A stretch of 64,000 nt of DNA from Candidatus Acidiferrales bacterium. GTDB taxonomy: Bacteria > Acidobacteriota > Terriglobia > Acidiferrales > 2-02-FULL-67-57. This document shows, piece after piece, positions 2,847 through 43,214 of the stretch (positions are counted from its first letter, which is position 1; the number at the start of each line of letters is the position of its first letter). The position numbers and the translations under genes were made by a program. The DNA lies in contig CBDFHE010000018.1 in the NCBI GenBank assembly GCA_965247455.1, positions 404,566 to 468,565 of the forward strand. Direction: 5' to 3'. The notes under the pieces are model-generated. The model worked only from the letters and a program-made list of their open reading frames with translations. It made no database searches and was not told the DNA's origin.

Positions 2847-5255
2847 ATGAAGCGCCCTCGCAAACTCGTTCTCACCCTTGGCATCATTCTCCTGCTGGTC
2901 GTACTGCTGCCCGGGGGCGCTTTCTACTGGCGCCTGCGCCACGCCCTGCCGGCCTACGACGGTGAGGTCAAGCTGGCCGGCCTGCACCGGCCGGTGCGCA
3001 TCCTCCGCGACCCGCGCGCTGTCCCGCACATCTACGCGCAAGACCTCGACGACTTGCTCTTCGCCCAGGGCTTCGTCCACGCCCAGGAGCGCCTGTGGCA
3101 GATGGATTTCCTCCGGCGCGCCGCGCGCGGGCAACTGGCGGAAATCCTGGGAGCGGCGGCGCTGGAGCTGGACAAGCAGAATCGCCTGCTGGCCCTGGGC
3201 TCGGTGGCCGACCGCGCTTTCGAGGCCCTCAACGAGGAAGACCGCGCCCAACTGGAAGCCTACGCTGGCGGCGTCAACGCCTTCATCCACTCCCGCGCTG
3301 GCCCGCCGCTGACCTCCGGCCTGCCGGCCGAATTTGCCCTGCTCGGCTACCGGCCCGATCCCTGGCAGCCGGCCGACTCGCTGGCGCTGGTGCTGAACAT
3401 GTTCAAGACCCTCACCACCGTCTGGCGGTCGGAGCTGGCCCGCGCGCGCGTCCAGGAAATGCTGGACCCAGAGATGGCCAGCGACCTCTTTGTCACCGCC
3501 TCCGACCACGACCACCCCATCGCTGTCCCCGTGCGGCGCCCGCCCCGACGGCGACGCGAACGGGTCTTCGTGGCCGGGACGTGCCGGCACTCCCTCGACC
3601 AGATTGTTTCCACCACTGCCCTGCCGTTGGGCCTGTGCCGCGAGAACTGCGGGGCCAGCAACAACTGGGTGGTGGCCGGCGCCCATACCGCCTCCGGGGC
3701 GGCCCTGCTGGCCAACGACACCCACCTGCCGCACAGCAATCCCGCGGTCTGGTTCCTCAACCACCTGGTCGCGCCCGACCTGGACGTGGCCGGCTTCAGC
3801 CTGCCGGGCATTCCCTTGGTCATCATGGGCCACAACCGCGACATCGCCTGGGGCGTCACCAACCTGGAGGCTGACCTGCAAGACCTTTTCATCGAGCAGT
3901 TCGACCCCGACGACCCTTCCCGCTACCTCACCCCCAACGGCTGGCAAACCGTCCAGCGCCGGATGGAGCACATCAGCGTTCGCGGCGCCGACGATGTGAA
4001 CTTTGAAGTTCTGGAAACCCGCCACGGGCCCATCGTCCACCAAGACGGCCCGCTGAAGCTGGCATTGCAATGGACCGCCCGCGACACCACCCAGTTTTCC
4101 CTTCCTCTTCTTGCCCTCAGCCAAGCCCGCAACTGGGAGGACTTCCAGGCCGCGCTGGCCGACTGGGGCGCGCCGCCCCAGAACTTTGTCTATGCCGACC
4201 GCGCCGGCCACATCGGCTACCACGCCGCCGGCCGCATCCCGCTGCGCCGCACCGGGCGCGGCCACCTTCCCATGCCCGGGCACACCAACCGCTACGACTG
4301 GATCGACTACCTGCCCTTCGAAGCCCTGCCGCACACCTTCGATCCGCCGGAAGGAATCCTGGCCACCGCCAACAACCGAACCGTCCCCCGGGGCTACCCC
4401 TATCATGTGACCGACCGCTGGATGGCGCCCGCCCGCATCCACCGCATCTACCAAGTCCTGGATGGTGCCGCGGAGGAGGAGCGCAAGCTGACGCCCGACG
4501 ACCTTCTCCGCCTGCAAGGCGACATCCTCTCCCTGCCCGACCGCTTCCTGGCCCAGCAGCTCCGCGCTGCTGCCGAGGCCGCCTCCGACCATCCGCCCCG
4601 CCGCACCGAAGCGCTGGCCATCCTGGCGGAGTGGGACGGCCGGATGCAGGCCGACTCCGCCGCTCCCCTGATTGTCAATGCCACGCGGCGTCGCCTGCTG
4701 GAAGAGTTGCTGCGCCCGCACCTGGACGACGATTGGCGCGCCTACTCCTGGCCCATGGCCCCGGTGTTTCTCGAAGACGTGCTGCGCCAACGCCCGCCGC
4801 GCTGGCTGCCCGAGCAATACGACAGCTACGACGCGCTGCTGCTGGCTGCGCTTGACGCGGCGGTGGAACGCATCTTCCGCCGGACCCGCACCCCGGCGCT
4901 CAACCGCCTGCGCTGGGGCCAGCAAGTGCGGGTGCGCTTTGCCCATCCGGTTTGGGATCGGATTCCTCTACTGCGGAGCTGGTTCTCGGTCGGGGGGGAA
5001 ACCCAATCGGGCGGGCGCTACACCGTCAAGCAGACCCGTCGCACCGCCGGACCCTCGCAGCGGCTGGTGGTGGACTTCGCAAACTTGGACGCGACCCTGA
5101 TGAACATCACCGTGGGGCAATCCGGCCACGTCGCCGGCCCGCACTACCAAGACCAGTACCGAGCCTGGCTGGAGGTGCGCAGCTTCCCTGCCCCCTTCAC
5201 CGAGCTGGCGGTGGAGCGCGCCGCCCGCCATACCCTCCACCTGCTGCCCCGCTGA
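2847..5255 (+). CDS. penicillin acylase family protein (Ntn-hydrolase, peptidase S45; possible acyl-homoserine-lactone/beta-lactam acylase)
   Basis: 802 aa with an N-terminal signal/TM helix. Hallmark beta-subunit start GASNNWVVAGAHTASGAALLANDTHL, plus AQDLDDLLFAQGFVHAQERLWQMD. Confidence 0.9.
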   Translation: MKRPRKLVLTLGIILLLVVLLPGGAFYWRLRHALPAYDGEVKLAGLHRPVRILRDPRAVPHIYAQDLDDLLFAQGFVHAQERLWQMDFLRRAARGQLAEILGAAALELDKQNRLLALGSVADRAFEALNEEDRAQLEAYAGGVNAFIHSRAGPPLTSGLPAEFALLGYRPDPWQPADSLALVLNMFKTLTTVWRSELARARVQEMLDPEMASDLFVTASDHDHPIAVPVRRPPRRRRERVFVAGTCRHSLDQIVSTTALPLGLCRENCGASNNWVVAGAHTASGAALLANDTHLPHSNPAVWFLNHLVAPDLDVAGFSLPGIPLVIMGHNRDIAWGVTNLEADLQDLFIEQFDPDDPSRYLTPNGWQTVQRRMEHISVRGADDVNFEVLETRHGPIVHQDGPLKLALQWTARDTTQFSLPLLALSQARNWEDFQAALADWGAPPQNFVYADRAGHIGYHAAGRIPLRRTGRGHLPMPGHTNRYDWIDYLPFEALPHTFDPPEGILATANNRTVPRGYPYHVTDRWMAPARIHRIYQVLDGAAEEERKLTPDDLLRLQGDILSLPDRFLAQQLRAAAEAASDHPPRRTEALAILAEWDGRMQADSAAPLIVNATRRRLLEELLRPHLDDDWRAYSWPMAPVFLEDVLRQRPPRWLPEQYDSYDALLLAALDAAVERIFRRTRTPALNRLRWGQQVRVRFAHPVWDRIPLLRSWFSVGGETQSGGRYTVKQTRRTAGPSQRLVVDFANLDATLMNITVGQSGHVAGPHYQDQYRAWLEVRSFPAPFTELAVERAARHTLHLLPR

Positions 5256-6408: not shown

Positions 6409-6654
6409 ATGAGAGCGAAATTTAGCGCCGCTAAATCTCTACGAAACAGTAGCCGCCCGCCGAGCCTAGGTCAACTGCTTCGCTGGAAGCGCCATTGGGG
6501 CCTCTACAGTCGGGTGGCGCGCCGCCAGAAGCTTTCCCCCCAACACGTACAAAGAGTTGCCAGCGGCGAGCGGAGATCGCGGCGGGTTGAGCACGCTCTT
6601 GCCGAGGAATTGCGAAAACTCGGCACCGCATGGAACCACCGAAGGCTGCATTGA
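6409..6654 (+). CDS. small Nlp/Ner/Cro-like DNA-binding protein (start uncertain)
   Basis: The C-terminal two-thirds reads like a short HTH regulator (LYSRVARRQKLSPQHVQRVASGERRSRRVEHALAEELRKLG). It is divergent and abuts the repressor start codon, so the real start or the promoters must overlap. Confidence 0.4.
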   Translation: MRAKFSAAKSLRNSSRPPSLGQLLRWKRHWGLYSRVARRQKLSPQHVQRVASGERRSRRVEHALAEELRKLGTAWNHRRLH

Positions 6655-6742
6655 GTGTGACGACTACCCTAGCACTGGGAGGTCTCGGCACCGGCGATTC
6701 ACATGAAAGTGCACGGACACCAGCCTCATAAGGAAGCTACCA

Positions 6743-7012
6743 ATGAAAAACTTAAAGAGCAAATCCATCCGCGTCGCTGACCTGGATGTAACCATCGAAA
6801 CCATCCTGAAACGGCAATACGACAGCTCCATTACAGTAACCGTCGCAGGTACATGCGGAAAATCCTCCTACGTTGGCACCACGATGATTCCCCCCAACCC
6901 CAAAGCCACCCAGGAACAAGTCGAAAAGGACGTAGATGACTTCTGCGAGAGCATTGCACGCGAAGCTGCCGGGCGGGAAAAAGTCCGACGGTTGGCAGAG
7001 AAATTGACCTAG
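6743..7012 (+). CDS. hypothetical protein (89 aa), lower GC than surroundings
   Basis: ATG preceded by AAGGAAG. Lys/Glu-rich and noticeably AT-richer than flanking genes. No family recognised. Confidence 0.4.
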   Translation: MKNLKSKSIRVADLDVTIETILKRQYDSSITVTVAGTCGKSSYVGTTMIPPNPKATQEQVEKDVDDFCESIAREAAGREKVRRLAEKLT

Positions 7013-33320: not shown

Positions 33321-35700
33321 ATGATTGGCCAGACGCTGAGCCACTACCGCGTGGTGGAGAAGATCGGTGCCGGCGGCATGGGCGAGGTCTACCGAGCCAC
33401 CGACACTCGCCTTGAACGCGAAGTGGCCTTGAAGGTTCTGCCCTCGGGAACCCTGGCTGACGAAGCCGCCCGCAAACGTTTCCGCAAGGAAGCCCTCACC
33501 CTCTCCAAGCTCAGCCATCCGCACATCGCCACGGTGCACGACTTCGACACGCAGCACGGGATCGACTTTCTGGTGATGGAGTATGTGGCCGGTGGAACAC
33601 TAGCGGCAAAGCTCAAGAGCGGGCCTTTACCCGAAAAAGAAGTGGCCCGGCTGAGCCTTCAGATAGTGGAGGCGCTGGAAGAAGCCCATGAGCAGGGCAT
33701 CGTGCACCGGGATATAAAGCCGGGGAACGTGATGGTGACGCCCAAGGGGCAGGTGAAGGTGTTGGACTTCGGGCTGGCGAAACTACTGAGGCCGGTGAGT
33801 GCGACGGCGACTACCGAAAGCTTCACCGAGACGCAAGGGGCAGCGGGAACATTACCGTATATGGCGCCCGAGCAACTCCGCGGCGAACAGGTGGACGCGC
33901 GGACCGATATCCACGCGCTGGGGGCGGTGCTCTACGAGATGGCGACCGGCCAGCGGGCCTTCCCGGACCGGCAACCGGCCCAGTTGACCGCGGCCATCCT
34001 GCAACTGCCGCCGTCCAGCCCGCGGGCGCTCAACCGGCGGGTGTCGGGAGAACTGGAGCGGGTGGTGCTGAAGTGTCTGGAGAAGGAGCCGGAGCGCCGC
34101 TACCAGTCGGCCAAAGAGCTAAGGGTGGACTTGCGCCGAATGTCGAGTCCAACGGTCGCAGCCTTCACACCGAGCCCCCAGGCACCTGCCTGGGGGAAAC
34201 CTGTGTGGCGGCTTGCGGCTGCTGGGTTCGCGGTGGTCGCACTGCTGGCGGTGCTGGTGGGGCTGAACGTCGGCGGCCTGCGCCAACGGCTGCTGGGGGG
34301 AGCGGCGCCAGGTCAGATTCAATCCATCGCCGTGCTGCCACTCGATAACATGATGGGCGACGCTGAGCAGGATTACTTTGTGGAAGGGATGCACGAAGCG
34401 CTGATTACCGAGTTGTCCAAAATCGGCGCCTTGAAGGTCATCTCCCGGACTTCCGCGATGCGGTACAAGGACACGGACAAGTCGGTGCCGGAGATTGCAA
34501 GGGAACTGGGGGTGGACGCGGTAATCGAAGGCTCGGTGTTGCGAGCGGGAAGCACGGTGCGGATCACAGCGCAGTTGATCGAGGCGGCCACCGACCGCAA
34601 CCTCTGAGCTGACAATTTCGACCGGGAACTGCGCAACATTCTGGCCTTGCACAGCGAGGTGGCACGGGCAATTGCCAAGGAGATCAAGATCACACTGACG
34701 CCAGGAGAGGAGGCGCGCCTCGCCAGCGCCCGCCCCGTCGACCCCGAGGCGTACGAGGCCTACCTCATAAGGTCGCTACCACTGGAACAAGCGCACGCCG
34801 GAGGGGTTCCAGAAAGCGGCCGAGCTCTTCCAGCAGGCTATTGACCTCGACCCCACTTACGCGCTGGCCCACGCCGGCCTGGCCGACAATTACGCCGTGC
34901 AACCCTCCTGGGGCACACTCCCACCTCGCGAAGCATACCCCCGTGCCAAGGCCGCCGCCGAGCGCGCCCTGGAGATAGACGACTCCCTAGGAGAGCCCTA
35001 CGCCACGCTGGGCGAGGTCCTGTGGAGCTACGACTGGGACTGGGAGGGAGCGGAGCGAGCTTTCCGGGAGGCGCTGGACCGGAATCCTAGCTACGCCACG
35101 GCGCACCAGTGGCACGCCCAGTATCTGGCGGCCGTGGGGCGGCACGAAGAGGCCATCGCCGAAATCAAACGCGCCCAGGAACTCGATCCTCTTTCCTTCA
35201 TCATCGCTTTCAACGTGGGGTGGAAGTATTACTATGCCCGCCAATACAACGGAGCGGAGGAGGCCACGCGCAAGGCCTTGGAGATGGACCCCAACCATCC
35301 CGGTCCACACTTCACCCTGGGCTGGATTTACCTGGCGACGGGCCGGCCGCAGGAAGCCGTTGCCGCCTTTCATCGCGCCTCGCAGCTTCTCCCTGGCAAG
35401 CCAGTATATCTGGGCGGTCTGGCTGCGGCCTATGTCCGAATGGGCAAGAGAGAAGAAGCCCGGCGGTTGCTGGAGCGATTGGAGAATGAATCAAGAGAAA
35501 GATATGTGGCCGCCGAGGACATAGCGCTTGTCTATGCCCGCCTAGGCGAGAAAGACCGTGCCTTCCTCTGGCTGGAAAGAGCTCTTGAACAGCGCACATG
35601 GGCTGTGGCGTACATGAAAGTTGCACCGCGCTTCGATGTCCTGCGGGATGACCCCCGCTTCCAATCCCTTCTCCGCCGCATGAACTTCCCGGAGGATTAG
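33321..35700 (+). pseudogene. Ser/Thr protein kinase - TM - TolB-N-like - TPR protein, disrupted by an in-frame TGA (34605-34607) and a +1 insertion (about 34768)
   Basis: Hanks kinase motifs (GAGGMGEVY, ALKVL, HRDIKPGNV, DFGLA, PYMAPE). Three consecutive ORFs (33321-34607, 34608/34647-34844, 34897-35700) read as one protein once the two lesions are repaired. Confidence 0.75.
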
Positions 35701-35905: not shown

Positions 35906-36370
35906 CTAGGGGCGGGAGCGCTCGCGCAGGAGCTGCTTCAACTCGCCCATGAATTCCTTGACGTCTTTGAAGTCCAAATAGACCGAGGCGAAGCGGACGT
36001 AGGCGACTTTGTCCAGCTTGCGCAGCCGGTTCATGATCACCTCACCCACTTCACTGGAGTTGCGCTCGCGGTTGGGGGAGTCGGCGACGAAGGTTTCCAC
36101 CTCGTCCACCGTCGCTTCCAGCTTCTGCATCGGCACGGGGCGTTTCTCGCACGCCCGCAGCAGCCCCGCCAGCACTTTTTGCCGGTCGAACCGCTCCCGG
36201 CGGCCGTCCTTCTTGATGACCATGTAGGGAATCTCGTCAATGCGCTCGTAGGTGGTGAAGCGGCGGTGGCAGCCGAAGCATTCGCGCCGGCGGCGGATGG
36301 CGTCGCCCCCGCGCGCCTCGCGCGAGTCCACCACCTTATCTTCTCCGTGGCCGCAAAAAGGGCACTTCAT
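35906..36370 (-). CDS. nrdR: transcriptional repressor NrdR
   Basis: [17 protein letters not shown] zinc ribbon plus an ATP-cone (..[20 protein letters not shown]..). Confidence 0.92.
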
Positions 36371-36544
36371 CGCGGGCCTCTCCGCCGAAGAACTTCCGCT
36401 GGTGCGACGGCTCCCATGGATGACTCTACCGGCGGCCCCAGCCTAATACGAAGCCGGCAGGCTGGCAAGAGCAGGCGTTGCTAAGACATAGTTGCGCAGG
36501 GGGTTAGGAGCGACTACCATACCCCCGCCAAGGGTGGTTGGAGG

Positions 36545-36570
36545 GGAACTTTTCGCTGCCCAAATCCGTT
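36545..36570 (+). promoter_or_regulatory. candidate ECF-type promoter (GGAAC-N17-CGTT)
   Basis: GGAAC at 36545-36549 and CGTT at 36567-36570 with a 17-nt spacer, about 45 nt upstream of the sigma-factor start. Matches the generic ECF -35/-10 pattern. By-eye call only. Confidence 0.35.
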
Positions 36571-36614
36571 TCTTGGAATAGGGCCGGTCAACGGAAGTTG
36601 CAGGAGCGGCCTAG

Positions 36615-37199
36615 GTGGATGATGCCGAACTGGTACGACGATGCGTGGCCGGCGACAGCGCGGCCTGGGAAAGCATTGTCCGCACCCATACCCGGCGCAT
36701 CTACAACCTCTGTTACCGCTTTACCGGCCAGCGGCAAGAGGCGGAAGATTTGACGCAGGAGGTTTTTCTGCGCATGTTTCGCACGCTCAAAAGTTACGAC
36801 CCCGCTCAAGGCGCCCTGGGCGTCTGGCTGCACCGGGTGGGCCGCAACCTGCTGATTGACCACTACCGCGCCACCCGCCGCGACCGCCTGACCAGTTCGC
36901 TCGACGACGAGCTGACGCACCTGGGCGAGAAGGAAGCCGCTCCTGCGCAGCAAGACCGGCAGGTGGCCCTGCGCGAGCTGAGCGCCACGCTGCAGTGGGC
37001 GCTGGCGCGGCTCTCGCCCGAGCTGCGCGAAGCGGTGGTGCTGCGCGACCTGCAAGAACTGGAGTACCGCGAGATCAGCCAGACGCTTAACATCCCGGAA
37101 GGCACCGTCAAGTCGCGCATCAACCGCGGCCGCGCCGAGCTGGGCCGAATTTTGAAGCGGCTGCCCGGGTTCGACAACCCGGAGGACGTAGTCCAATGA
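36615..37199 (+). CDS. ECF (sigma-70 family, group 4) RNA polymerase sigma factor
   Basis: Region 2 (IYNLCYRFTGQRQEAEDLTQEVFLRMF) and region 4 (LRDLQELEYREISQTLNIPEGTVKSRINRGRAEL). Confidence 0.9.
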   Translation: MDDAELVRRCVAGDSAAWESIVRTHTRRIYNLCYRFTGQRQEAEDLTQEVFLRMFRTLKSYDPAQGALGVWLHRVGRNLLIDHYRATRRDRLTSSLDDELTHLGEKEAAPAQQDRQVALRELSATLQWALARLSPELREAVVLRDLQELEYREISQTLNIPEGTVKSRINRGRAELGRILKRLPGFDNPEDVVQ

Positions 37200-37846
37200 A
37201 GAAGTGGAACTGCGAACGGCTGGAAGCGCGGCTGGACGACTACCTGGAAGGCCGGCTGGCCGCAGCCGACCTGCGGGCAGCCGACGCCCACGCGCGCTCC
37301 TGCGCGCGTTGCGCTGAGTGGTTCGACGCCCGCCGCGCTGCGCTCTGGCTGCGCCGGCTCGAACCGCTGGAGGCGCCGCCGGGCTTGGAGACCCGCATCC
37401 TCGCCCAGACTGTCGCGCCTCCACCGCGCGAAAGCCTGTGGACCGTGCTGGATCGCGGCTGGACTCTGGTGGTGCAACCCCGCTTCGCCTTCGGCTCGGC
37501 GGCCGCGGTGTTCTCCGCCGCGCTGGCGCTGAGCGCGTTGGATGTCTCGGTGCGGGACGTGCGGGCGGCGGACCTGAATCCCGCCAACATTTACCGCGCC
37601 GTCAACCGCCAGGCCCACCAAACCTATGCGCGCGGGGCTCGCTTCGTCAACGAACTCCGGCTGGTGTACGAAATCCGCACCCGGCTGGAGGCGTTCCGTT
37701 CTGACGCCCAGCCTCCGTCCCCACAGCCGCCGCCCGATTCCGGCCCGGGCGAGCAGCCCAAGCCCGACGACGGGAATTCCGCCTCCGGAACAATCGGTTG
37801 GTTGTATGCGTACCACCAGATGACACTCGTGAGGACGTTGCGATGA
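37196..37846 (+). CDS. anti-sigma factor (zf-HC2 type)
   Basis: N-terminal C..H..C..C zinc motif (WNCERLEARLDDYLEG...HARSCARCAEW). ATGA overlap with the sigma stop. One central hydrophobic helix. Confidence 0.75.
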   Translation: MKKWNCERLEARLDDYLEGRLAAADLRAADAHARSCARCAEWFDARRAALWLRRLEPLEAPPGLETRILAQTVAPPPRESLWTVLDRGWTLVVQPRFAFGSAAAVFSAALALSALDVSVRDVRAADLNPANIYRAVNRQAHQTYARGARFVNELRLVYEIRTRLEAFRSDAQPPSPQPPPDSGPGEQPKPDDGNSASGTIGWLYAYHQMTLVRTLR

Positions 37847-38451
37847 ACGAAGACGCCAAACAACCCGAAGCGGCTGCCGGCTTCTGCCGCCAGTGCGGTA
37901 AGACTCTTACTCCCGAGACCCGCCGGGACGTCCGCGGGGTGTACTACTGTGAAGATTGCCTGGCGGCTGCCACCCTCGGTGGCCAGGCGACTAGCGCTGG
38001 TGGACCCAGTCCCGGCGCCGCTCTGGCCTTGGGCTTCATCCCCGGCGTCGGCGCACTCTACAACGGCGAATACGTGAAGGCCCTGATCCACCTCATCATC
38101 TTCGGAGGCTTAATCAACATTCTGAGCTCCAGCGCCGCCCGGGGCCTCAAGCCCCTGCTGGGTATACTGCTGGCCGCCTTCATTATCTACATGCCGATCG
38201 AAGCCTACCAGACTGCCAAGCGCCGCGCTTCCGGTTTAGTTCCGGCCCCCAGTGGCTGGGAAACGCCGGGAACGAAGGGAGGCAAGGCCACCCCCATCGG
38301 CCCCCTGGTCTTGATCGTTTTGGGTGTACTTTTCCTGCTCAACAACTTTCTCCCCTATCACTTTCACCTGTTGCGCTTCTGGCCGCTGGCTCTGATCGCA
38401 CTCGGCGGCTGGATGCTGTGGAAACGAACCAGCGGCGCGCCCCCCGCCTAG
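37843..38451 (+). CDS. zinc-ribbon membrane protein with C-terminal 'WP-hairpin' (DUF5668/LiaF-TM-like) unit
   Basis: CRQCG..17..YYCEDC ribbon, TM segment LGFIPGVGALYNGEYVKALIHLIIFGG, and C-terminal ..LGVLFLLNNF..LLRFWPLALIALGGWMLWKR. ATGA overlap with the anti-sigma stop. Confidence 0.65.
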   Translation: MNEDAKQPEAAAGFCRQCGKTLTPETRRDVRGVYYCEDCLAAATLGGQATSAGGPSPGAALALGFIPGVGALYNGEYVKALIHLIIFGGLINILSSSAARGLKPLLGILLAAFIIYMPIEAYQTAKRRASGLVPAPSGWETPGTKGGKATPIGPLVLIVLGVLFLLNNFLPYHFHLLRFWPLALIALGGWMLWKRTSGAPPA

Positions 38452-38473
38452 CGGGACAGAAAGGAGAACTGCA

Positions 38474-38755
38474 ATGAAAATGAATACGGGATCTGAACTT
38501 ACTCCGGGACAGACGCCAGCACAAACCCTCCGCCGTAGCAGCGAGGCGGGATTCTGCGGCTGCAACAGCCTGTTCTGCGCGCTCTTCCTGATTGCCTTCG
38601 GCGCCTTCTTCCTGCTCGGCAACCTGGACGTTTTCCCCTGGGGTTTCTACCTCTGGCGCTACTGGCCGGTACTTCTGATCGCGCTGGGAGCGTGGTTGCT
38701 CTGGAAGCGCACCGCCGGCGCGCCCACCAACCGACAACCAGGAGGGCTAGGATGA
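38474..38755 (+). CDS. small membrane protein, 'WP-hairpin' unit only
   Basis: 93 aa: ..FLIAFGAFFLLGNLDVFPWGFYLWRYWPVLLIALGAWLLWKR. AAGGAG lies 8 nt upstream of the ATG. Confidence 0.6.
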   Translation: MKMNTGSELTPGQTPAQTLRRSSEAGFCGCNSLFCALFLIAFGAFFLLGNLDVFPWGFYLWRYWPVLLIALGAWLLWKRTAGAPTNRQPGGLG

Positions 38756-39009
38756 GTCAAGGACCTACTCCAACGCCGCAACCGACCGGAACGCCGCCAC
38801 AACCCTCCGGCAAGTATTGCCCCTGCGCTCGCTGCCGTTGCAGTGGCCTGCTGGGCCCGGCCATCCTGATTACCCTCGGGGTGCTTTTCCTCGTTCCGCA
38901 GTTCGTGCACCGGCTCGATTTCGGCGACCTGTGGCCCATCATCCTGATCGTCATCGGAGCCGTGAAACTGTTCGAATACGGCGCCTCCACCGAGGGACAT
39001 CGAGGGTAG
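38752..39009 (+). CDS. small membrane protein, Pro-rich N-terminus + CPCARCRC cluster + 'WP-hairpin' unit
   Basis: 85 aa. ATGA overlap with the previous stop. ..GPAILITLGVLFLVPQFVHRLDFGDLWPIILIVIGAVKLF. Confidence 0.6.
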   Translation: MSQGPTPTPQPTGTPPQPSGKYCPCARCRCSGLLGPAILITLGVLFLVPQFVHRLDFGDLWPIILIVIGAVKLFEYGASTEGHRG

Positions 39010-39010
39010 C

Positions 39011-40393
39011 ATGGCCAACGGCACCTCTTACCGTCGCGGCTCGGTTTTCGGCGCGTTGTTGCTGATCGCCGTCGGCGGGCTCTTCCTCTACACCAACTTT
39101 AGCCGCGAGTTCAGTCCCTGGCCCCTGATCGCCCTCTACTGGCCGGTGCTCATCATCTTCTGGGGCCTGAGCAAGCTGGTGGACTACTGGATGCTGCGCG
39201 GCCGCCCGGAAGCCGCCGCCGCCACCCGCATCGGTGCCGGCAGCATCGTCGGTCTGATTTTCCTCATCCTCATCGGCACCGCCTTCAGCCGCGCCATGCG
39301 CGGCGGCTGGTGGGAAGGCGCTCCGATTGTCATCGGGGGCGAGGAAATCGGCTGCGTGCTCGGCAACCGGTACGAGTTCACTGAGGAATTGATTGAAGAA
39401 GACATCGCCACCCGTGCCACGTTGCAAGTCCGCAACCCGCGCGGCAACCTCACCCTCACCCCCGGCGACACCAACCAGATCCGTCTGATGGCCCGCAAGT
39501 CCGTCTGTGCCGCCTCGGAAGACCAGGCCCGGCGGGTGGCCAACAGTTACGTGCTGGTGCTGGAAAGCGCCGCCGACGGCTACGAAATCCGCTGGGATAC
39601 CCCTTCCGGGGCCCGCGGCTTCGTAGGAGCTGAGCTCCAACTGCGAGTTCCCGTGGCCCTCAATCTCAAACTCTCCAACCGCCGCGGGGATATCCGCCTC
39701 AGCGGCACCCGGGGCGACGTCGAAATCAACCTCCGTCGCGGCGACGTCTTCGTAGAGAACGTGGACGGTGACGTCCGGGTGGATCTGAGGCGGGGCGATG
39801 TACGAATCGCCGACGTCACCGGCAAAGTGAACGTTGAGGGCCGGGGAGATGAAGTTCAAATCCGCGACATCGGCGGCGCCGCCAGCGTGGAAGGCTCCTT
39901 CTATGGGCCCATCCGGTTGGCTGCTATTGCCGGCCCGGCTCGGTTCGTCTCCCGCCGTTCCACCTTCGAGGCGCCCCGCATTGACGGCAGCCTGGAGTTT
40001 GCCAGCGGCGAAGTGATCCTGCGCGGCGTCCCCGGCGACGTGACCCTGCTCACCCGCGACAAGGAAATCGAAATCGAAGGTGTCAGCGGAAAAGTCCGAG
40101 TCGAGAACCGCAACGGCCGCATTGTGCTTCGCGCCCCCGCCTCTCCCACCCAGCCGATTGATATCCAGAACCGCTCCGGTAACATCGAGCTCGTCCTGCC
40201 CACGGCCAGCGGCTTCGAGATTTCCGCCCGCGTCCGCAATGGCGAGATCGAGTCCGACTTCACCGGCCCCGGCTTGACCCTTGAGCGCGAAGAGCGCGGC
40301 ACCCAGACCCTCCGGGGCACCTACGGCGCCCGCCGGACTTCCATCCGCCTCTCCACCACCCACGGCACCATTTACCTCCGCCGCGAGTCCTAG
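39011..40393 (+). CDS. 'WP-hairpin' membrane anchor fused to a DUF4097 (LiaG-like beta-helix, 'putative adhesin') domain
   Basis: N-terminus ..LLIAVGGLFLYTNF..ALYWPVLIIFWGLSKLV plus a further TM. The C-terminal ~330 aa has repeated GDI/V-R/E-V/I rungs (RRGDIRLSGTRGDVEINLRRGDVFVENVDGDVRVDLRRGDVRIADVTGKVNVEG..). Starts 1 nt after the previous stop. Confidence 0.75.
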   Translation: MANGTSYRRGSVFGALLLIAVGGLFLYTNFSREFSPWPLIALYWPVLIIFWGLSKLVDYWMLRGRPEAAAATRIGAGSIVGLIFLILIGTAFSRAMRGGWWEGAPIVIGGEEIGCVLGNRYEFTEELIEEDIATRATLQVRNPRGNLTLTPGDTNQIRLMARKSVCAASEDQARRVANSYVLVLESAADGYEIRWDTPSGARGFVGAELQLRVPVALNLKLSNRRGDIRLSGTRGDVEINLRRGDVFVENVDGDVRVDLRRGDVRIADVTGKVNVEGRGDEVQIRDIGGAASVEGSFYGPIRLAAIAGPARFVSRRSTFEAPRIDGSLEFASGEVILRGVPGDVTLLTRDKEIEIEGVSGKVRVENRNGRIVLRAPASPTQPIDIQNRSGNIELVLPTASGFEISARVRNGEIESDFTGPGLTLEREERGTQTLRGTYGARRTSIRLSTTHGTIYLRRES

Positions 40394-40529
40394 CAACACG
40401 CACACCGCTGGGCTGCTGCTCCCGGTCGCACGGAAAAATTCTCCCCAAAACGCTTGACAAGCCTGTGGCTAATTCCCTAAGACAAAGGCGATTTTTCTTG
40501 TCCGTCTTCAGGTTGGCCACAGGGGACAC

Positions 40530-43214
40530 TTGGCGATTACCCGTACGCCTCAATCAGCGTTCCGGCGTCGCAGCCAACGGATTCCGTTGGCGGTGCCTCT
40601 TTTTGTCTCCAGCCTTGACCCGAACTTCAAATTCTCCGAACGGTGCGAAACCGTGTCCGTAAGCAGCCACGGGTGTCGCCTCCGGGCCCCCTGCTCCTTG
40701 GAAAAAGGCATGCAGGTACGCCTCGATATTCTGCACACCGACCGCACCACCAATGCTCACGTCGTCGGCTCGGAAGCGCTCGGGGCCGATATCAAAACCT
40801 GGGAAGTCTCGCTGGAACTCGACAACCCAGAGAATTTCTGGGGCATCCAATTCCCACCCGAAGACTGGGCCGCGCAAACCCGCGCTCGCGGTCGGGGACA
40901 AGCAGAAGCCAAAGCTTCGAGTGCTGCTCCTCCCGCAGCGGCAACTCCAAAAGCTTCCACGGCGGCCAAGCCTGCGGCTCCGCCTGCTCCCTCGGCTCCG
41001 GAGAAAGCGGCCCCGGTACCGCCCAAGGCTCCCGTAGCTCAGCGACCAGCCGCTTCCGCTCCGCCGCCTGCACCATCACAAGCCGCTGCGCCCGCGCCCC
41101 CGAAAGCCCCGGCACCACCGCCCGCGCCCGCTCCCGTGGCCGCGCTGCCCGACGTCGGCAAAGTGGTGAAAGAATTTGAGCGGATCCTGCAGGGCAAGGC
41201 CAAGGACATCTCCAGTGAGTTTGAAAACTCCTACCGCGAAAGCCTGGGCGACCTGCTGGTGCGCCTCCGCGCTGACTTCGAGGAGCGCGCCTCCTCCGAT
41301 TGGGAGCGCCTCCAAAAACAGGCCCAAGGAGGGTTGCAGGAGATCGCCCAGCAAGTTCGCCAGTCCGTGGACCAAGACCTGGAACGCCGCCGTCAAGACT
41401 CCACCGACGCAGAATCCAAGCTCCAGGCCGTGCGGAAGCTCAGCGAAGAGGCGGAAGCACTCCTTTTCGGCGTCGGGAAGACCTTCCGTAAGCAGGTCGC
41501 CCAGGAGCGCGAGCTCTTGCTGGCCAACTCGCGCGAGCAACTTCAGGCCGTGGTCGAGCAGACCCGCACGCAAGTCCGGCAGGATTTGGCCCGGCGCGAG
41601 AAATCCACCACCGACCTCCAAGCCCACCTCGATGAGATGCGCCAGGCCCGCGACTACGTCGAGTCGCTCGTCCGCCTGCTCCCGCAAACCGTGGACGACC
41701 GCGTCAAGGAAGGAGTCAGCGGCACCCTGGAGCGCATCCGCGCCCTGATCGAAGAGGAGTTCTCCGCCCAGCGCGAAGCTCAGCGGGGGCAACTCGAGCA
41801 GCACCTGCTCGGCCTCACCGAAAACGTCGGCCAGGACCTGCGGCAAAAGCTACTCGAAGACTTCGACCGCAGCGAGCGTGAATTCCTCGACCGCATCAAC
41901 GTGCGCCTGAAAGAAGCGCGCGCCATCGAAGGCAGCTTGCAGCAGTACGCCGGCCAGATGAACTCCCAGCTCACGCAGCAGGCCGAAGAACTGCTGGCCC
42001 GGATGCAGGCTCAGCTCAACGTACTGCTCCAGCGCCGCCAGGACGAGCTGACTGCAAGCCTCGACCAGCGCAGCACCCAGCTCCAGCAGCAGTTGCACGA
42101 CTGGCAACAGTCCGTGGACAAGACCCGGGAAACCCACCTGGATGGTTTGCAGGCCGAGTCAGACCGGCTCAACGCCCTGCTGGGAGAAGCGCAAGCGGCC
42201 GAGAAAAGCCTGCACCGTTATGCGCAGCAGGTCGGTACCGACCTGGCTCAACAGACTGACCAAATGCTGGCCGCCATGCGCACCCAGCTTGAGAACCTGA
42301 TAAAGCAAAGCCAGGGTGAGATCACCACCCACCTCGAACAGCAAAACGCTCAATTCAGCCAGCGGGCGGAAAAAGCCCTGCGCAGCCTGGGCGAGCAGGC
42401 GTGGAATTCCGTCCAGCAGCGTCTGCGGACCGACTTCGGCCAGCGCCAGCAGGAGCTGAAGGAAACTCTGGAAAAAACCCAGGCCGAGTCCACTCGCCTG
42501 GGAGCACGCGCCGAAGCATTGGCGGCCCAGCTGGACGAAGGACTAGAAGCACGGCTGGAAAAAGCTGTGACCGACACCGTCAACCACACCCGCGAACAGC
42601 TCGAACAAGCAGCCGAAACCGTGCGGCAGACCCACCTGCCGCAGTTGCAAGAAGAGCTCGACCAGACGCTGGCTCCCCTGGTCAGCCGCAGCGAAGCCAC
42701 CGCGGTTGACCTGCACGCTCTGCTCGACTCCCTCAAAAAAGAGGGTGGTCAGTTGGAAACCCAAGTAGGGGAATTCCGCCAGGAGGCCGAGCAAGCGCGC
42801 ACTTGGCTGACGGACGAGACCAAGAATTTCCAGAAGCAAGTCCACGAAGCCCTGGTCGAGGCCAGCGGCCAGATCAAAGACCGCATCCACCTGGCCATCG
42901 AAATGGCCCAGGAGCCCATGGAGCACCGCGCCCGCGAGCTGCGCGCGCAGTTGGAGGAGTTGAGCACCAACACCAGCCAGGAGCTGGCGCAACAGTTGAA
43001 CGAAGTCCACGAGCATCTGCGCGCCAGCCAGAGCAAAGCGGAAACGTCGGTCGATTCCATGCTGGACGCCCGCTTGACCGAGGCGCTCGACCGCTTCCGG
43101 CAACAAGCCGAAGAGATGGCGCAGGATTCCGCCGCTCAGGTGCAGGCCACCCTCAACGACACCTTGGAGTCCGTCTCCCGCCTGTTGCGTGAGAAGCTCG
43201 GCCCCAAGCGCTAG
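40530..43214 (+). CDS. PilZ domain - Pro/Ala-rich linker - ~690-aa coiled-coil protein
   Basis: N-terminal PilZ-like motifs RRRSQRIPL (RxxxR) and TVSVSSHGCRL (xxSxxG). Residues ~120-205 are a PAPA low-complexity linker. The rest is heptad-rich with internal ~70-aa repeats. The TTG start at 40530 is uncertain. Confidence 0.7.
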   Translation: MAITRTPQSAFRRRSQRIPLAVPLFVSSLDPNFKFSERCETVSVSSHGCRLRAPCSLEKGMQVRLDILHTDRTTNAHVVGSEALGADIKTWEVSLELDNPENFWGIQFPPEDWAAQTRARGRGQAEAKASSAAPPAAATPKASTAAKPAAPPAPSAPEKAAPVPPKAPVAQRPAASAPPPAPSQAAAPAPPKAPAPPPAPAPVAALPDVGKVVKEFERILQGKAKDISSEFENSYRESLGDLLVRLRADFEERASSDWERLQKQAQGGLQEIAQQVRQSVDQDLERRRQDSTDAESKLQAVRKLSEEAEALLFGVGKTFRKQVAQERELLLANSREQLQAVVEQTRTQVRQDLARREKSTTDLQAHLDEMRQARDYVESLVRLLPQTVDDRVKEGVSGTLERIRALIEEEFSAQREAQRGQLEQHLLGLTENVGQDLRQKLLEDFDRSEREFLDRINVRLKEARAIEGSLQQYAGQMNSQLTQQAEELLARMQAQLNVLLQRRQDELTASLDQRSTQLQQQLHDWQQSVDKTRETHLDGLQAESDRLNALLGEAQAAEKSLHRYAQQVGTDLAQQTDQMLAAMRTQLENLIKQSQGEITTHLEQQNAQFSQRAEKALRSLGEQAWNSVQQRLRTDFGQRQQELKETLEKTQAESTRLGARAEALAAQLDEGLEARLEKAVTDTVNHTREQLEQAAETVRQTHLPQLQEELDQTLAPLVSRSEATAVDLHALLDSLKKEGGQLETQVGEFRQEAEQARTWLTDETKNFQKQVHEALVEASGQIKDRIHLAIEMAQEPMEHRARELRAQLEELSTNTSQELAQQLNEVHEHLRASQSKAETSVDSMLDARLTEALDRFRQQAEEMAQDSAAQVQATLNDTLESVSRLLREKLGPKR

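What the first reader, a model, noticed from the sequence alone, without database searches (positions are those of the whole stretch)
36545..40393. Six-gene, translationally coupled ECF sigma / anti-sigma operon encoding four paralogous 'WP-hairpin' membrane proteins ending in a DUF4097 beta-helix
Seen: sigma (36615-37199), a zf-HC2 anti-sigma (37196-37846) and four further ORFs are chained by ATGA overlaps (37196/37199, 37843/37846, 38752/38755), a 1-nt gap (39009/39011) or a 22-nt RBS spacer. All four downstream proteins contain the same two-helix unit: a helix ending G..F(L/F)(L/V/Y), a short loop, then (W/Y/L)WP(L/V/I)x(L/I)I(A/V/F)xG. The four instances are LGVLFLLNNF..RFWPLALIALGGW, FGAFFLLGNL..RYWPVLLIALGAW, LGVLFLVPQF..DLWPIILIVIGAV and VGGLFLYTNF..LYWPVLIIFWGLS. 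Each unit is fused to a different partner: a CxxC..CxxC zinc ribbon, nothing, a CPCARCRC cluster, or a ~330-aa DUF4097/LiaG-like beta-helix. Established: LiaF/LiaG-type membrane proteins belong to the LiaFSR envelope-stress module of Firmicutes. Inference: similar building blocks here are wired to an ECF sigma/anti-sigma pair, and the fourfold paralogy with tight coupling suggests a hetero-oligomeric membrane sensor or effector with no described mechanism. A GGAAC-N17-CGTT motif (36545-36570) could be the autoregulated promoter.
Basis: partly seen in the sequence, partly recalled or inferred. Interest (0 to 1): 0.6.

Follow-up and report, generated by a model that had tools for sequence, protein, structure and literature searches.

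The report
ECF sigma operon with Lia-like proteins
This is a real, conserved six-gene stress-response operon of an uncultured acidobacterium, in which an alternative sigma factor and its membrane-bound inhibitor are made together with four related small membrane proteins, one of them carrying a large beta-helix domain. Operons of this kind have already been catalogued by comparative genomics, so it is a solid but fairly ordinary find.

Summary
Six tightly packed + strand genes (36615-40393) encode an ECF sigma factor, a zinc-binding (ZAS-type) single-pass anti-sigma factor and four proteins that share a two-helix unit. The unit is Pfam PF18917 (LiaI-LiaF-like_TM1). The last protein ends in a Toastrack/DUF4097 beta-helix: AF2 pLDDT 86, best PDB match 4QRK. 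Profile-profile tests confirm that the four units are paralogues (97-99% probability).

The predicted promoter is strongly supported. GAACTT-N15-CGT lies upstream of the sigma gene in 10 of 11 related loci, against 0.007 expected per upstream region.

The interpretation needs three corrections.
1. Wiring of LiaI-LiaF-TM and Toastrack proteins to an ECF sigma/anti-sigma pair in Acidobacteria is already described (Ravi et al. 2024, mSystems, Suppl. Text 2.4 and Table S4).
2. The conserved core has three hairpin classes, not four. Gene 4 derives from the class of gene 3 and was found only in this sublineage. In Terriglobales, classes A and B are fused in one protein.
3. The 'zinc ribbon' is a B-box that has lost one complete zinc site.

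New details from this work:
- The Toastrack is predicted to face the periplasm.
- Gene 5 carries a conserved CxCxxC...His signature.

Verdict: a new member of a known kind. The mechanism is untested.

The parts
36545..36570 (+). Predicted ECF-type autoregulated promoter: -35 GGAACTT (36545-36551) and -10 CGTT (36567-36570)
   Evidence: GAACTT-N15-CGT occurs once in the 64-kb window. The same motif with the same spacing lies upstream of the sigma gene in L001 and L003-L010, so 10 of 11 loci counting the window. The expectation is 0.0067 per 160 nt. No transcript data are available.
36615..37199 (+). g1: ECF (group IV) sigma factor, 194 aa, GTG start preceded by AGGAG
   Evidence: Sigma70_r2 2.7e-21, Sigma70_r4_2 2.3e-16, TIGR02937 sigma70-ECF 109 bits against a cut-off of 42.9. 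Nearest solved relatives are M. tuberculosis SigE (1e-33) and B. subtilis SigW (4e-27).
37196..37846 (+). g2: class I (ZAS) anti-sigma factor, 216 aa. It has an N-terminal zinc-binding anti-sigma domain (C6, H32, C36, C39), one TM helix (about residues 97-117, nt 37484-37546), a conserved ~55-aa post-TM segment (DLNP...VYEIRTR) and a Pro-rich tail.
   Evidence: zf-HC2 E 6.7e-4, 20.2 bits, just under the cut-off. Orthologues in L022 and L024 are annotated PF13490. The motif and the post-TM segment are conserved in 10 loci. Hydropathy peak of 1.87.
37843..38451 (+). g3 (hairpin class A), 202 aa. Parts: degenerate B-box retaining one Zn site (C15, C18, C36, C39; nt 37885-37959), a 2-TM module with the GFIPGVGAxYNGEY motif (about nt 38014-38217), a basic linker, and a LiaI-LiaF-like hairpin (residues 152-192, nt 38296-38418).
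   Evidence: PF18917 E 2.3e-9. There are 1891 homologues, several named 'B-box zinc finger protein'. 45 of 47 aligned homologues hit PF00643. The window protein and P0123 do not, and both lack C4, H7, C23 and C26. AF2 pLDDT 78, with helices 77-95, 103-129, 152-169 and 176-196.
38474..38755 (+). g4: stand-alone hairpin protein, 93 aa, derived from class A. It has a juxtamembrane CxC...C motif and its own AAAGGAG ribosome-binding site. It is a lineage-specific addition.
   Evidence: PF18917 E 5.9e-12. hhalign against the class A profile: 99.4%, 3.8e-21. Present only in the window, L001, L019, L020 and L021. Absent from L017 (g6 61% identical), L003 and L005-L010. dN/dS 0.35 against L019.
38752..39009 (+). 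g5 (hairpin class B), 85 aa. Parts: Pro-rich N-terminus, CxCxxC cluster (nt 38818-38841), hairpin (nt 38851-38970), and a conserved ASTEGH tail (His83 at nt 38998-39000).
   Evidence: PF18917 E 4e-7. In an alignment of 28 homologues, C25, C28 and H83 are invariant and C23 is at least 90% conserved. An orthologous hairpin is found in every related locus, fused to class A in L004-L010.
39011..40393 (+). g6 (hairpin class C), 460 aa. Parts: hairpin (residues 12-56, nt 39044-39178), third TM helix (residues 76-97, nt 39236-39301), and a ~340-aa Toastrack/DUF4097 beta-helix (residues 119-458, nt 39365-40384) predicted to face the periplasm.
   Evidence: DUF4097 E 4.6e-14. AF2 pLDDT 86.4, all-beta from residue 119 to 458. 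Foldseek top PDB hit is 4QRK at E 1.1e-7, followed by 3PET, 3LYC and 4OPW. Charge bias over 62 homologues: N-terminus K+R 2.2, loop 2 K+R 1.9, and after TM3 K+R 1.4 against D+E 3.2. C115 and C166 are either both present (33 sequences) or both absent (29).

Best explanation
This is an autoregulated envelope/membrane-stress module of an uncultured member of Acidobacteriota (class Terriglobia, probably Candidatus Acidiferrales). It belongs to the already catalogued type 'ECF sigma -> ZAS anti-sigma -> LiaI/LiaF-TM protein(s) -> LiaI/LiaF-TM+TM+Toastrack'.

Shown here:
- The six genes, their domains and the hairpin paralogy.
- Conservation of the gene order across Terriglobia at one chromosomal position.
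- A conserved ECF-type promoter upstream of the sigma gene.

Inferred mechanism:
1. In unstressed cells the single-pass anti-sigma factor holds the sigma factor at the membrane.
2. The hairpin proteins (B-box class A, Cys/His class B, Toastrack class C, plus the extra class-A-derived g4) are made from the same transcript. Overlapping or closely spaced reading frames (4-nt overlaps, a 1-nt gap, one 22-nt spacer) would favour coupled translation.
3. They assemble by pairing hairpins into LiaF-like four-helix units around or next to the anti-sigma TM helix.
4. Their zinc and cysteine modules face the cytoplasm. The Toastrack beta-helix faces the periplasm, beside the conserved post-TM segment of the anti-sigma factor.
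5. Membrane or envelope perturbation changes this complex and the anti-sigma factor is inactivated. The likely route is regulated proteolysis, as for the nearest sigma relatives SigE, SigW and RpoE.
6. The freed sigma factor transcribes its own operon from GGAACTT-N15-CGTT. This replenishes the anti-sigma factor and the Lia-like proteins as negative feedback, in analogy to LiaF in liaIH-GFSR.
For: Identity and domains. Paralogy.

Conserved order sigma, anti-sigma, class A, class B, class C:
- L001-L010.
- L017 and L018 (in L018 the upstream end, including the sigma gene, is cut off by the contig end).
- L019.
- L020 and L021.
- L022-L025.
Every locus with enough upstream sequence has the order.

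Same chromosomal position: nrdR lies upstream and EPSP synthase downstream.

Promoter: conserved in 10 of 11 loci against 0.0067 expected per 160 nt.

Physical association of hairpin proteins:
- Classes A and B share one 342-aa ORF in L005, and likewise in L006-L010. This is a Rosetta-stone fusion.
- LiaI and LiaG interact strongly in a bacterial two-hybrid assay in B. subtilis (PMC9239133).

Topology:
- The cytoplasmic zinc finger and basic linker of g3 fix the hairpin termini inside.
- g6 has three TM helices, with the positive-inside pattern holding over 62 homologues and a strictly co-occurring Cys pair in the beta domain.

Prior proposal of the same general function: Ravi et al. 2024. All five genes tested against L019 are under purifying selection.
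Against: - There is no expression, interaction or topology experiment for any member of this operon type.
- Deleting LiaG has no phenotype in B. subtilis (PMC9239133), so a Toastrack protein may not be a regulator.
- Ravi et al. argue that Toastrack is generally intracellular. This conflicts with the periplasmic orientation I infer. That inference rests on charge bias and a Cys pair confined to one clade, so it reflects few independent events.
- No protease gene, PspA/LiaH homologue or other recognisable effector lies next to the operon.
- No intrinsic terminator follows g6, so the 3' end of the transcript is unknown.
- L002 lacks the promoter motif.
Confidence: 0.6

Rival explanations
1. Pure effector model. 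The anti-sigma factor alone senses the signal. The four membrane proteins are only the output of the sigma factor. They would stabilise or remodel the membrane, like LiaI and PspC-type proteins, and would not feed back on signalling.
For: All four genes lie downstream of the sigma-dependent promoter and so belong to its regulon. LiaI acts as an effector/anchor in B. subtilis, and a LiaG deletion has no regulatory phenotype (PMC9239133). The slot between classes A and B holds different small membrane proteins in different lineages: g4 here, and 4-5 TM+coiled-coil paralogues in L002 and L022. Such variability is typical of accessory effectors.
Against: No PspA/LiaH-type partner for an anchor is encoded nearby. 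Frame overlaps between the anti-sigma gene and class A are conserved in the loci with gene calls, which is more typical of stoichiometric partners. The best-studied relatives of these domains, LiaF and VraT, are regulators according to Ravi et al.. I also recall LiaX as a regulator, but I did not read those papers; only listed them.
Confidence: 0.28
2. Cytoplasmic thiol or zinc sensor. The ZAS anti-sigma factor, with the half B-box of g3, the CxC...C of g4 and the CxCxxC...His of g5, would respond to oxidants, electrophiles or zinc status at the inner face of the membrane, in the manner of RsrA. The Toastrack would be structural.
For: g2 has the complete H-x3-C-x2-C motif, and its best NCBIfam hit is RsrA, though very weak (E 0.002, 18 bits against a cut-off of 62.5). 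In the g5 family, C25, C28 and H83 are invariant. The B-box ligands are at least 90% conserved in the g3 family.
Against: Many ZAS anti-sigma factors, such as RsiW, bind zinc structurally and are not redox switches (own knowledge). The Cys cluster of class B is missing in L002 and in the fused Terriglobales proteins. The window lineage has lost a whole B-box zinc site and the operon is still under purifying selection. The nearest sigma relatives are envelope-stress factors.
Confidence: 0.1
3. The resemblance among the four hairpins is a composition artefact of hydrophobic helices, and the genes are unrelated neighbours.
For: Transmembrane helices share biased composition. The PF18917 score of g6 is just under the Pfam cut-off (25.5 against 27).
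Against: Profile-profile probabilities are 97-99% with E values from 1e-10 to 4e-21, and the G..FL and WP..LI..G motifs align in register. Each class has orthologues in every related locus. A small HMM built from the four units finds exactly three or four hits per locus and none elsewhere in those loci.
Confidence: 0.02

Closest known systems
ECF sigma / anti-sigma-ZF+TM / LiaI-LiaF-TM / LiaI-LiaF-TM+TM+Toastrack gene context of Ravi et al. 2024 (mSystems; PMC11237479, Suppl. Text 2.4 and Table S4). Examples: Granulicella mallensis AEU34960.1 (Acix8_0610), and the B-box+LiaI-LiaF-TM variant ACO33311.1 of Acidobacterium capsulatum.
   Same: Same phylum, same gene order, same domain set: sigma, zf-HC2 anti-sigma with a TM helix, B-box/TM+LiaI-LiaF-TM, and LiaI-LiaF-TM+TM+Toastrack. 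The proposed role is also the same, namely Lia-like transduction of a membrane signal to a sigma factor. The Terriglobales loci L005-L010 reproduce the four-gene form.
   Different: Here the LiaI-LiaF-TM part is split into separate class A and class B genes. An extra class-A-derived hairpin gene (g4) is inserted. The B-box has lost one of its two zinc sites. The paper gives no promoter, no hairpin classes and no experiments, and it regards Toastrack as intracellular.
liaIH-liaGFSR of Bacillus subtilis (LiaI, LiaF, LiaG)
   Same: The building blocks are the same: the LiaI/LiaF transmembrane hairpin (PF18917/PF22570) and a membrane-anchored DUF4097 protein like LiaG. The locus is autoregulated and encodes its own negative regulator. 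LiaI and LiaG interact (PMC9239133).
   Different: The regulator there is a two-component system (LiaSR), not an ECF sigma/anti-sigma pair. This locus has no PspA homologue (LiaH) and gives no DUF2154 (PF09922, the LiaF C-terminal domain) hit. g6 scores 49 bits on NCBIfam LiaG against a cut-off of 285. The hairpins occur singly rather than as a 4-TM unit.
Envelope-stress ECF pairs regulated by intramembrane proteolysis: SigW-RsiW (B. subtilis), SigE-RseA (M. tuberculosis), RpoE-RseA-RseB (E. coli)
   Same: These are the closest sigma factors by sequence. All have a single-pass anti-sigma factor encoded directly downstream and an autoregulated promoter of the AAC...CGT type. RseB is a precedent for an operon-encoded periplasmic partner that guards the anti-sigma factor (own knowledge).
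   Different: None of these operons encodes LiaI/LiaF hairpins or a Toastrack. Proteolytic control is only inferred here. No NCBIfam equivalog cut-off is reached: SigE 163 bits against 265, SigW 124 against 209.
LiaX of enterococci and YvlB of B. subtilis (Toastrack proteins in envelope-stress circuits)
   Same: Both have a C-terminal DUF4097/Toastrack domain. g6 gives a weak NCBIfam LiaX hit, E 1.8e-9, 37 bits against a cut-off of 350. An abstract listed (PMC9752123) says that LiaX recognises daptomycin in the extracellular medium, which is a precedent for a Toastrack outside the cytoplasm. From my own knowledge, yvlABCD belongs to an ECF (SigW) regulon.
   Different: LiaX and YvlB lack the LiaI/LiaF hairpin anchor. 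They have helical or SHOCT-like N-termini instead. They are not encoded next to their sigma factor or regulator in this arrangement.

Membership tests
ECF (group IV) sigma-70 factors | Regions 2 and 4 only, about 190 aa | tested here: met
   Sigma70_r2 75.6 bits, Sigma70_r4_2 59.6 bits, TIGR02937 109 bits against a cut-off of 42.9.
ECF (group IV) sigma-70 factors | Cognate promoter of the AAC (-35) / CGT (-10) type upstream of its own gene | tested here: met
   GGAACTT-N15-CGTT at 36545-36570. The motif is conserved in 10 of 11 loci. Use of the promoter by the sigma factor is not tested.
Named ECF equivalogs (SigE, SigW, RpoE) | Score above the NCBIfam equivalog cut-off | tested here: not met
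   SigE 163 bits against 265, SigW 124 against 209, RpoE 100 against 236.
Class I / ZAS anti-sigma factors (zf-HC2, PF13490) | N-terminal (C/H)-x23-27-H-x3-C-x2-C motif, encoded directly downstream of the sigma gene | tested here: met
   C6, H32, C36 and C39 are read from the sequence. H-x3-C-x2-C is invariant in 10 orthologues. There is a 4-nt overlap with the sigma gene.
Class I / ZAS anti-sigma factors (zf-HC2, PF13490) | Pfam gathering score | tested here: inconclusive
   20.2 bits against 22.2 for the window protein. The orthologue in L022/L023 carries an unmarked PF13490 hit, and the one in L024/L025 a weak one.
LiaI-LiaF-like_TM1 (PF18917, formerly DUF5668) | Two-helix unit scoring above the Pfam gathering score | tested here: met
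   g3 37.6, g4 45.9 and g5 30.5 bits against a cut-off of 27. g6 scores 25.5 bits, just under it. However, nearly all listed g6 homologues carry a precomputed PF18917 and/or PF22570 hit, and hhalign links g6 to classes A and B at 97%.
Toastrack / DUF4097 (PF13349) | [quoted passage not shown] | tested here: met
   52.8 bits against 22.9. The AF2 model is all-beta from residue 119 to 458 with pLDDT above 90 over most of it. Foldseek top hit is 4QRK at E 1.1e-7, probability 1.00. A sequence profile search of the PDB finds nothing.
LiaG (NCBIfam NF049997 equivalog) | Full-length score above the cut-off | tested here: not met
   49.2 bits against 285, and only residues 352-454 match.
LiaF / VraT | 4-TM LiaF-TM domain plus a C-terminal DUF2154 domain, encoded next to a LiaS/LiaR-type two-component system | tested here: not met
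   No PF09922 hit. Each protein has a single hairpin. No histidine kinase or response regulator lies among the flanking genes: nrdR, a TPR protein and a kinase upstream, a PilZ protein downstream.
B-box zinc finger (PF00643) + LiaI-LiaF-TM proteins | Eight zinc ligands (C-H-C-C-C-C-C-C) forming two sites, plus a PF00643 hit | tested here: not met
   Window g3 keeps only C15, C18, C36 and C39, and has no PF00643 hit at E<=0.1. 45 of 47 homologues do hit PF00643. g3 is therefore an orthologue with a degenerate domain.
Sigma / anti-sigma / LiaI-LiaF-TM / Toastrack operon type (Ravi et al. 2024) | Co-directional order: sigma, zf-HC2+TM anti-sigma, LiaI-LiaF-TM protein(s), LiaI-LiaF-TM(+TM)+Toastrack | tested here: met
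   for the window, for the definition, and for relatives.
Classical PSP system | PspA/LiaH (ESCRT-III-like) protein in the operon | tested here: not met
   None of the six genes and none of the immediate neighbours has a PspA hit. The rest of the genome was not examined.

The most novel reading that the evidence does not exclude
The three conserved hairpin classes, plus g4 in this lineage, may not be interchangeable anchors. They could be obligate subunits of one hetero-oligomeric intramembrane sensor that is built around the anti-sigma TM helix and reads two compartments at once.

Single hairpins would pair in trans to rebuild LiaF-like four-helix units. The cytoplasmic face would carry a set of zinc/thiol modules: the ZAS domain, the half B-box, and a C3H 'clasp' formed by CxCxxC and the C-terminal His of class B. 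The periplasmic face would carry a Toastrack beta-helix that docks on the conserved post-TM segment of the anti-sigma factor and gates its proteolysis.

This would be a way of controlling an ECF sigma factor that has not been described. It would also show that Toastrack can act outside the cytoplasm in a didermic bacterium.
Probability: 0.12. Interest if true: 0.6.

Novelty: new member of a known kind. Interest (0 to 1): 0.3.

Why it matters
LiaI/LiaF hairpins and Toastrack domains sit at the centre of clinically important envelope-stress circuits (LiaFSR, VraTSR, LiaX). How they work at the molecular level is still unclear. The acidobacterial operon offers a minimal, sigma-coupled version.

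Its parts are now well defined:
- Three orthologous hairpin classes.
- A natural A+B fusion that predicts which subunits touch.
- A promoter that can serve as a reporter.
- A testable topology, with the Toastrack outside.

If studied in a cultured relative, it could show what these domains sense and how they talk to a regulator. As a discovery it is incremental, because the gene context was already published and nothing here contradicts what a specialist would expect.

Tried and rejected
1. Sigma-70 promoter and intrinsic-terminator scan of 36300-40700. It found nothing meaningful: one weak promoter-like site inside g6, and terminator-like sites at chance level. Folding the 81 nt after g6 gave no stable hairpin, z = +1.35.
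2. Searching the ECF reclassification paper (PMC7826278) for DUF4097, LiaF or an acidobacterial group. There was no mention, and its supplements are not held.
3. A sequence-profile search of the g6 family against PDB chains gave no hit. Only the fold search worked.
4. A Foldseek search with the g3 model gave no significant match (best E 0.55). There were only short local matches of about 30 residues to LIM/GATA-type zinc knuckles, so the 2-TM GFIPGVGAxYNGEY module stays unassigned. Four of 47 homologues weakly hit DUF5683 and one hit TM2.
5. I hoped the g5 homologue search would return the fused A+B proteins of Terriglobales for structure modelling. It returned only small stand-alone proteins and a few PspC+hairpin proteins, so the fusion could not be modelled under the tool's restrictions.
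6. Rfam and tRNA scans found nothing in or near the operon.
7. I considered and rejected the idea that g4 is a very recent copy of the window's own g3. Its hairpin is only 51% identical to that of g3, whereas g3 orthologues at 61% g6 identity reach 57%. It also keeps the longer ancestral class A loop. It is therefore an older or fast-evolving duplicate.
8. I considered the downstream PilZ/helical-repeat gene as a seventh member and rejected it. It is absent from L017, L022 and L024, where EPSP synthase follows g6 directly.

Full report
**1. What is in the sequence**

- Three junctions are 4-nt ATGA overlaps: 37196/37199, 37843/37846 and 38752/38755.
- One junction is a 1-nt gap (39009/39011).
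- One is a 22-nt spacer containing AAAGGAG, 7 nt before the ATG of gene 4.
- Gene callers working on 99.5%-identical metagenome contigs (L020, L021) gave gene lengths and junctions that map onto the same six boundaries.
- GC3 is 0.72-0.83 in all six frames. dN/dS against a relative (L019) is 0.08-0.35 for the five genes compared (g5 not included), and 0.35 for the smallest one, g4.

These are real genes. Exact-sequence look-up places them on a 769-kb contig. Close relatives are labelled Acidobacteriota / Candidatus Acidiferrales, class Terriglobia.

**2. Domains**

- **g1** is an ECF sigma factor (Sigma70_r2, Sigma70_r4_2, TIGR02937). Its nearest solved relatives are the envelope-stress factors SigE of M. 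tuberculosis (1e-33), SigW of B. subtilis (4e-27), AlgU and RpoE. No NCBIfam equivalog cut-off is reached.
- **g2** scores just under the zf-HC2 cut-off (20.2 against 22.2 bits) but has the complete ZAS motif C6...H32-x3-C36-x2-C39. It also has one TM helix (residues 97-117), a conserved ~55-residue segment after the helix (DLNP...VYEI(R/E)(T/S)R), and a proline-rich tail.
- **g3, g4, g5** pass the Pfam cut-off for PF18917 (LiaI-LiaF-like_TM1, formerly DUF5668). **g6** is just below it (25.5 against 27 bits) and passes Toastrack/DUF4097 (52.8 against 22.9 bits).
- The AlphaFold2 model of g6, built on 62 homologues, has pLDDT 86.4. It shows helices 12-30 and 36-61 (the hairpin), a third TM helix at 76-97, and an all-beta domain at 119-458.
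- The best PDB match of that model is 4QRK, which Ravi et al. use to define Toastrack (E 1.1e-7). Other DUF4097/DUF2807 'putative adhesins' follow.

**3. Paralogy of the hairpins**

The test was run and the similarity is significant.
- Class A (g3 family, 47 sequences) vs class C (g6 family, 62 sequences): 97.0%, E 1.1e-10.
- Class B (g5 family, 28 sequences) vs class A: 98.3%, E 1.4e-14.
- Class B vs class C: 97.4%, E 1.1e-11.
- g4 vs the class A profile: 99.4%, E 3.8e-21.

The alignments put the G..FL and WP..LI..G motifs in register.

**4. Conservation and what is specific to this lineage**

A scan of one genome per species with g6 returned 16 loci. Further loci came from exact-protein look-ups.
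- Every Acidobacteriota locus with enough upstream sequence has the co-directional order sigma, anti-sigma, class A, class B, class C.
- nrdR often lies divergently upstream and EPSP synthase downstream. The operon is therefore a vertically inherited chromosomal feature.
- An HMM built from the four window units finds three units per locus, not four, in L002-L010 and L017. It finds four only in the window, L001 and L019; L020 and L021, which were not scanned with this HMM, carry the same six genes.
- Each class is orthologous across loci. The g4 hairpin is nearest to class A (51-55% identity) and shares the C-terminal LWKRT(A/S)GAP tail of g3.
- In the Terriglobales loci L004-L010, class A and class B lie in one ORF. 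In L005 this is a 342-aa protein: B-box, 2-TM module, hairpin, hairpin. This matches the four-gene Granulicella example in the literature. It is also Rosetta-stone evidence that the separate g3 and g5 products associate.
- In another lineage (L002, L022), the position held here by g4 is filled by four or five tandem small TM+coiled-coil paralogues.

The operon therefore has a fixed core and a variable slot for small membrane proteins.

**5. Details of the individual proteins**

- The g3 family has an eight-ligand B-box at the N-terminus (C4, H7, C15, C18, C23, C26, C36, C39), and 45 of 47 aligned members hit PF00643.
- The window protein and its close relatives (P0123/L019, L001) have replaced C4, H7, C23 and C26 by D/N, Q, T and T. 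That removes one complete zinc site of the cross-brace and keeps the other. These two aligned sequences are exactly the members that fail PF00643.
- The g5 family is a distinct small-protein family. C25, C28 and H83 are invariant, C23 is at least 90% conserved, and the tail is ASTEGH. Three Cys before the first helix and a His after the second could form one zinc site that clasps the two ends of the hairpin. This is an inference only. The cluster is absent in L002 and in the fused forms.

**6. Topology (inferred)**

- The zinc finger and the basic linker of g3 place the ends of its hairpin in the cytoplasm. The N-terminal and C-terminal flanks of g4 and g5 are also basic.
- In the g6 family, mean K+R is 2.2 before helix 1, 0.35 in the hairpin loop and 1.9 between helices 2 and 3. 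After helix 3 the segment is net acidic (K+R 1.4, D+E 3.2).
- With three TM helices, this puts the Toastrack domain in the periplasm, on the same side as the conserved post-TM segment of the anti-sigma factor.
- Two cysteines of the beta domain (C115, C166) are either both present (33 sequences) or both absent (29), never alone. This fits a disulfide, but the pattern follows one clade, so it is weak evidence.
- Ravi et al. regard Toastrack as generally intracellular. Popp et al. describe the DUF4097 domain of LiaG as extracellular.

**7. Promoter**

- GGAAC-N17-CGTT is at 36545-36570. That is 45 nt upstream of the GTG start when measured from the end of CGTT.
- A single match in the window is not significant (0.36 expected).
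- GAACTT-N15-CGT with identical spacing is present upstream of the sigma gene in L001 and L003-L010, at -69 to -190 nt from the start codon. The expectation is 0.0067 per 160 nt, and these sites account for about half of the 20 matches in 478 kb of scanned sequence (both strands counted).
- Only L002 lacks it.
- The consensus (G/A)GAACTTT-N14-CGT(A/T) is of the AAC/CGT type usual for ECF sigma factors (own knowledge).

This is good phylogenetic-footprint support for an autoregulated promoter. No transcript data exist.

**8. Comparison with what is known**

- Ravi et al. 2024 (PMC11237479) defined the LiaI-LiaF-TM and Toastrack domains.
- In Suppl. Text 2.4 and Table S4 they describe conserved contexts with a sigma factor, a zf-HC2 anti-sigma factor and membrane-anchored Toastrack proteins.
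- They propose that these systems work like the lia operon, but through the sigma factor.

I found no experimental study of this operon type.

The locus is not a LiaFSR system: it has no DUF2154 domain, no two-component system and no PspA homologue. g6 is not a LiaG equivalog.

**9. Most likely mechanism**

The steps and their status are in the Best explanation section. The regulatory role of the hairpin and Toastrack proteins is the weakest step, and I put it only somewhat above the pure-effector rival.

**10. Verdict**

This is a new member of a known kind with small lineage-specific features: split A and B genes, the extra g4, and a half B-box. It provides useful anatomy for future experiments but would not surprise a specialist. 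Interest 0.3.

Noticed in passing
window 34605-34607 (ORFs 33321-34607 and 34647-34844, + strand): An in-frame TGA splits a Ser/Thr protein kinase gene into two ORFs in the same frame. The 99.5%-identical contigs L020 and L021 have TGG (Trp) at this codon and a single 507-aa gene call. This is a nonsense mutation or a sequence error in the window.
   Followed up: partly
window 40530-43214 (+): An 894-aa ORF lies directly downstream of the operon. It has an N-terminal PilZ domain (29.8 bits) followed by about 700 residues of helical repeats with sub-threshold apolipoprotein-like matches. It is present in L019, called as two genes in L020 and L021, and absent from L017, L022 and L024. No terminator separates it from g6, and a TTGACA lies at about 40455.
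   Followed up: partly
L022 5306-6562; L002 about 3590-4778: In another acidobacterial lineage, the slot between the class A and class B hairpin genes holds a Gly-rich small membrane protein and four tandem paralogues of about 70 aa. Each paralogue has one TM helix and a REKELxxHQxLRxxEMEHxxKMKELE coiled coil. None has a Pfam hit.
   Followed up: partly
L022 about 6600-6830; L024 about 6620-6800: The class B hairpin gene (g5 orthologue) is present in the DNA but was not called by the gene finders on these contigs. Counts of this small-protein family from annotation alone will therefore be too low.
   Followed up: yes
window 37843-38451 compared with L019 6001-6609: g3 is much more diverged from L019 (85% nt identity, dS 0.36) than its neighbours g1, g2, g4 and g6 (93-96%, dS 0.10-0.16). 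This suggests faster evolution or recombination at this gene in the lineage that also lost a B-box zinc site.
   Followed up: no
window 36391-36401 and 36589-36599: An 11-nt inverted repeat (AACTTCCGCTG / CAACGGAAGTT, 91% complementary, arms 187 nt apart) brackets the nrdR-sigma intergenic region. The second arm lies between the predicted promoter and the sigma start codon.
   Followed up: no
window 39353-39355 and 39506-39508 (g6 C115 and C166): Two cysteines in the Toastrack domain co-occur strictly across 62 homologues: 33 sequences have both, 29 have neither and none has only one. This could be a disulfide, but the pattern is confined to one clade.
   Followed up: partly
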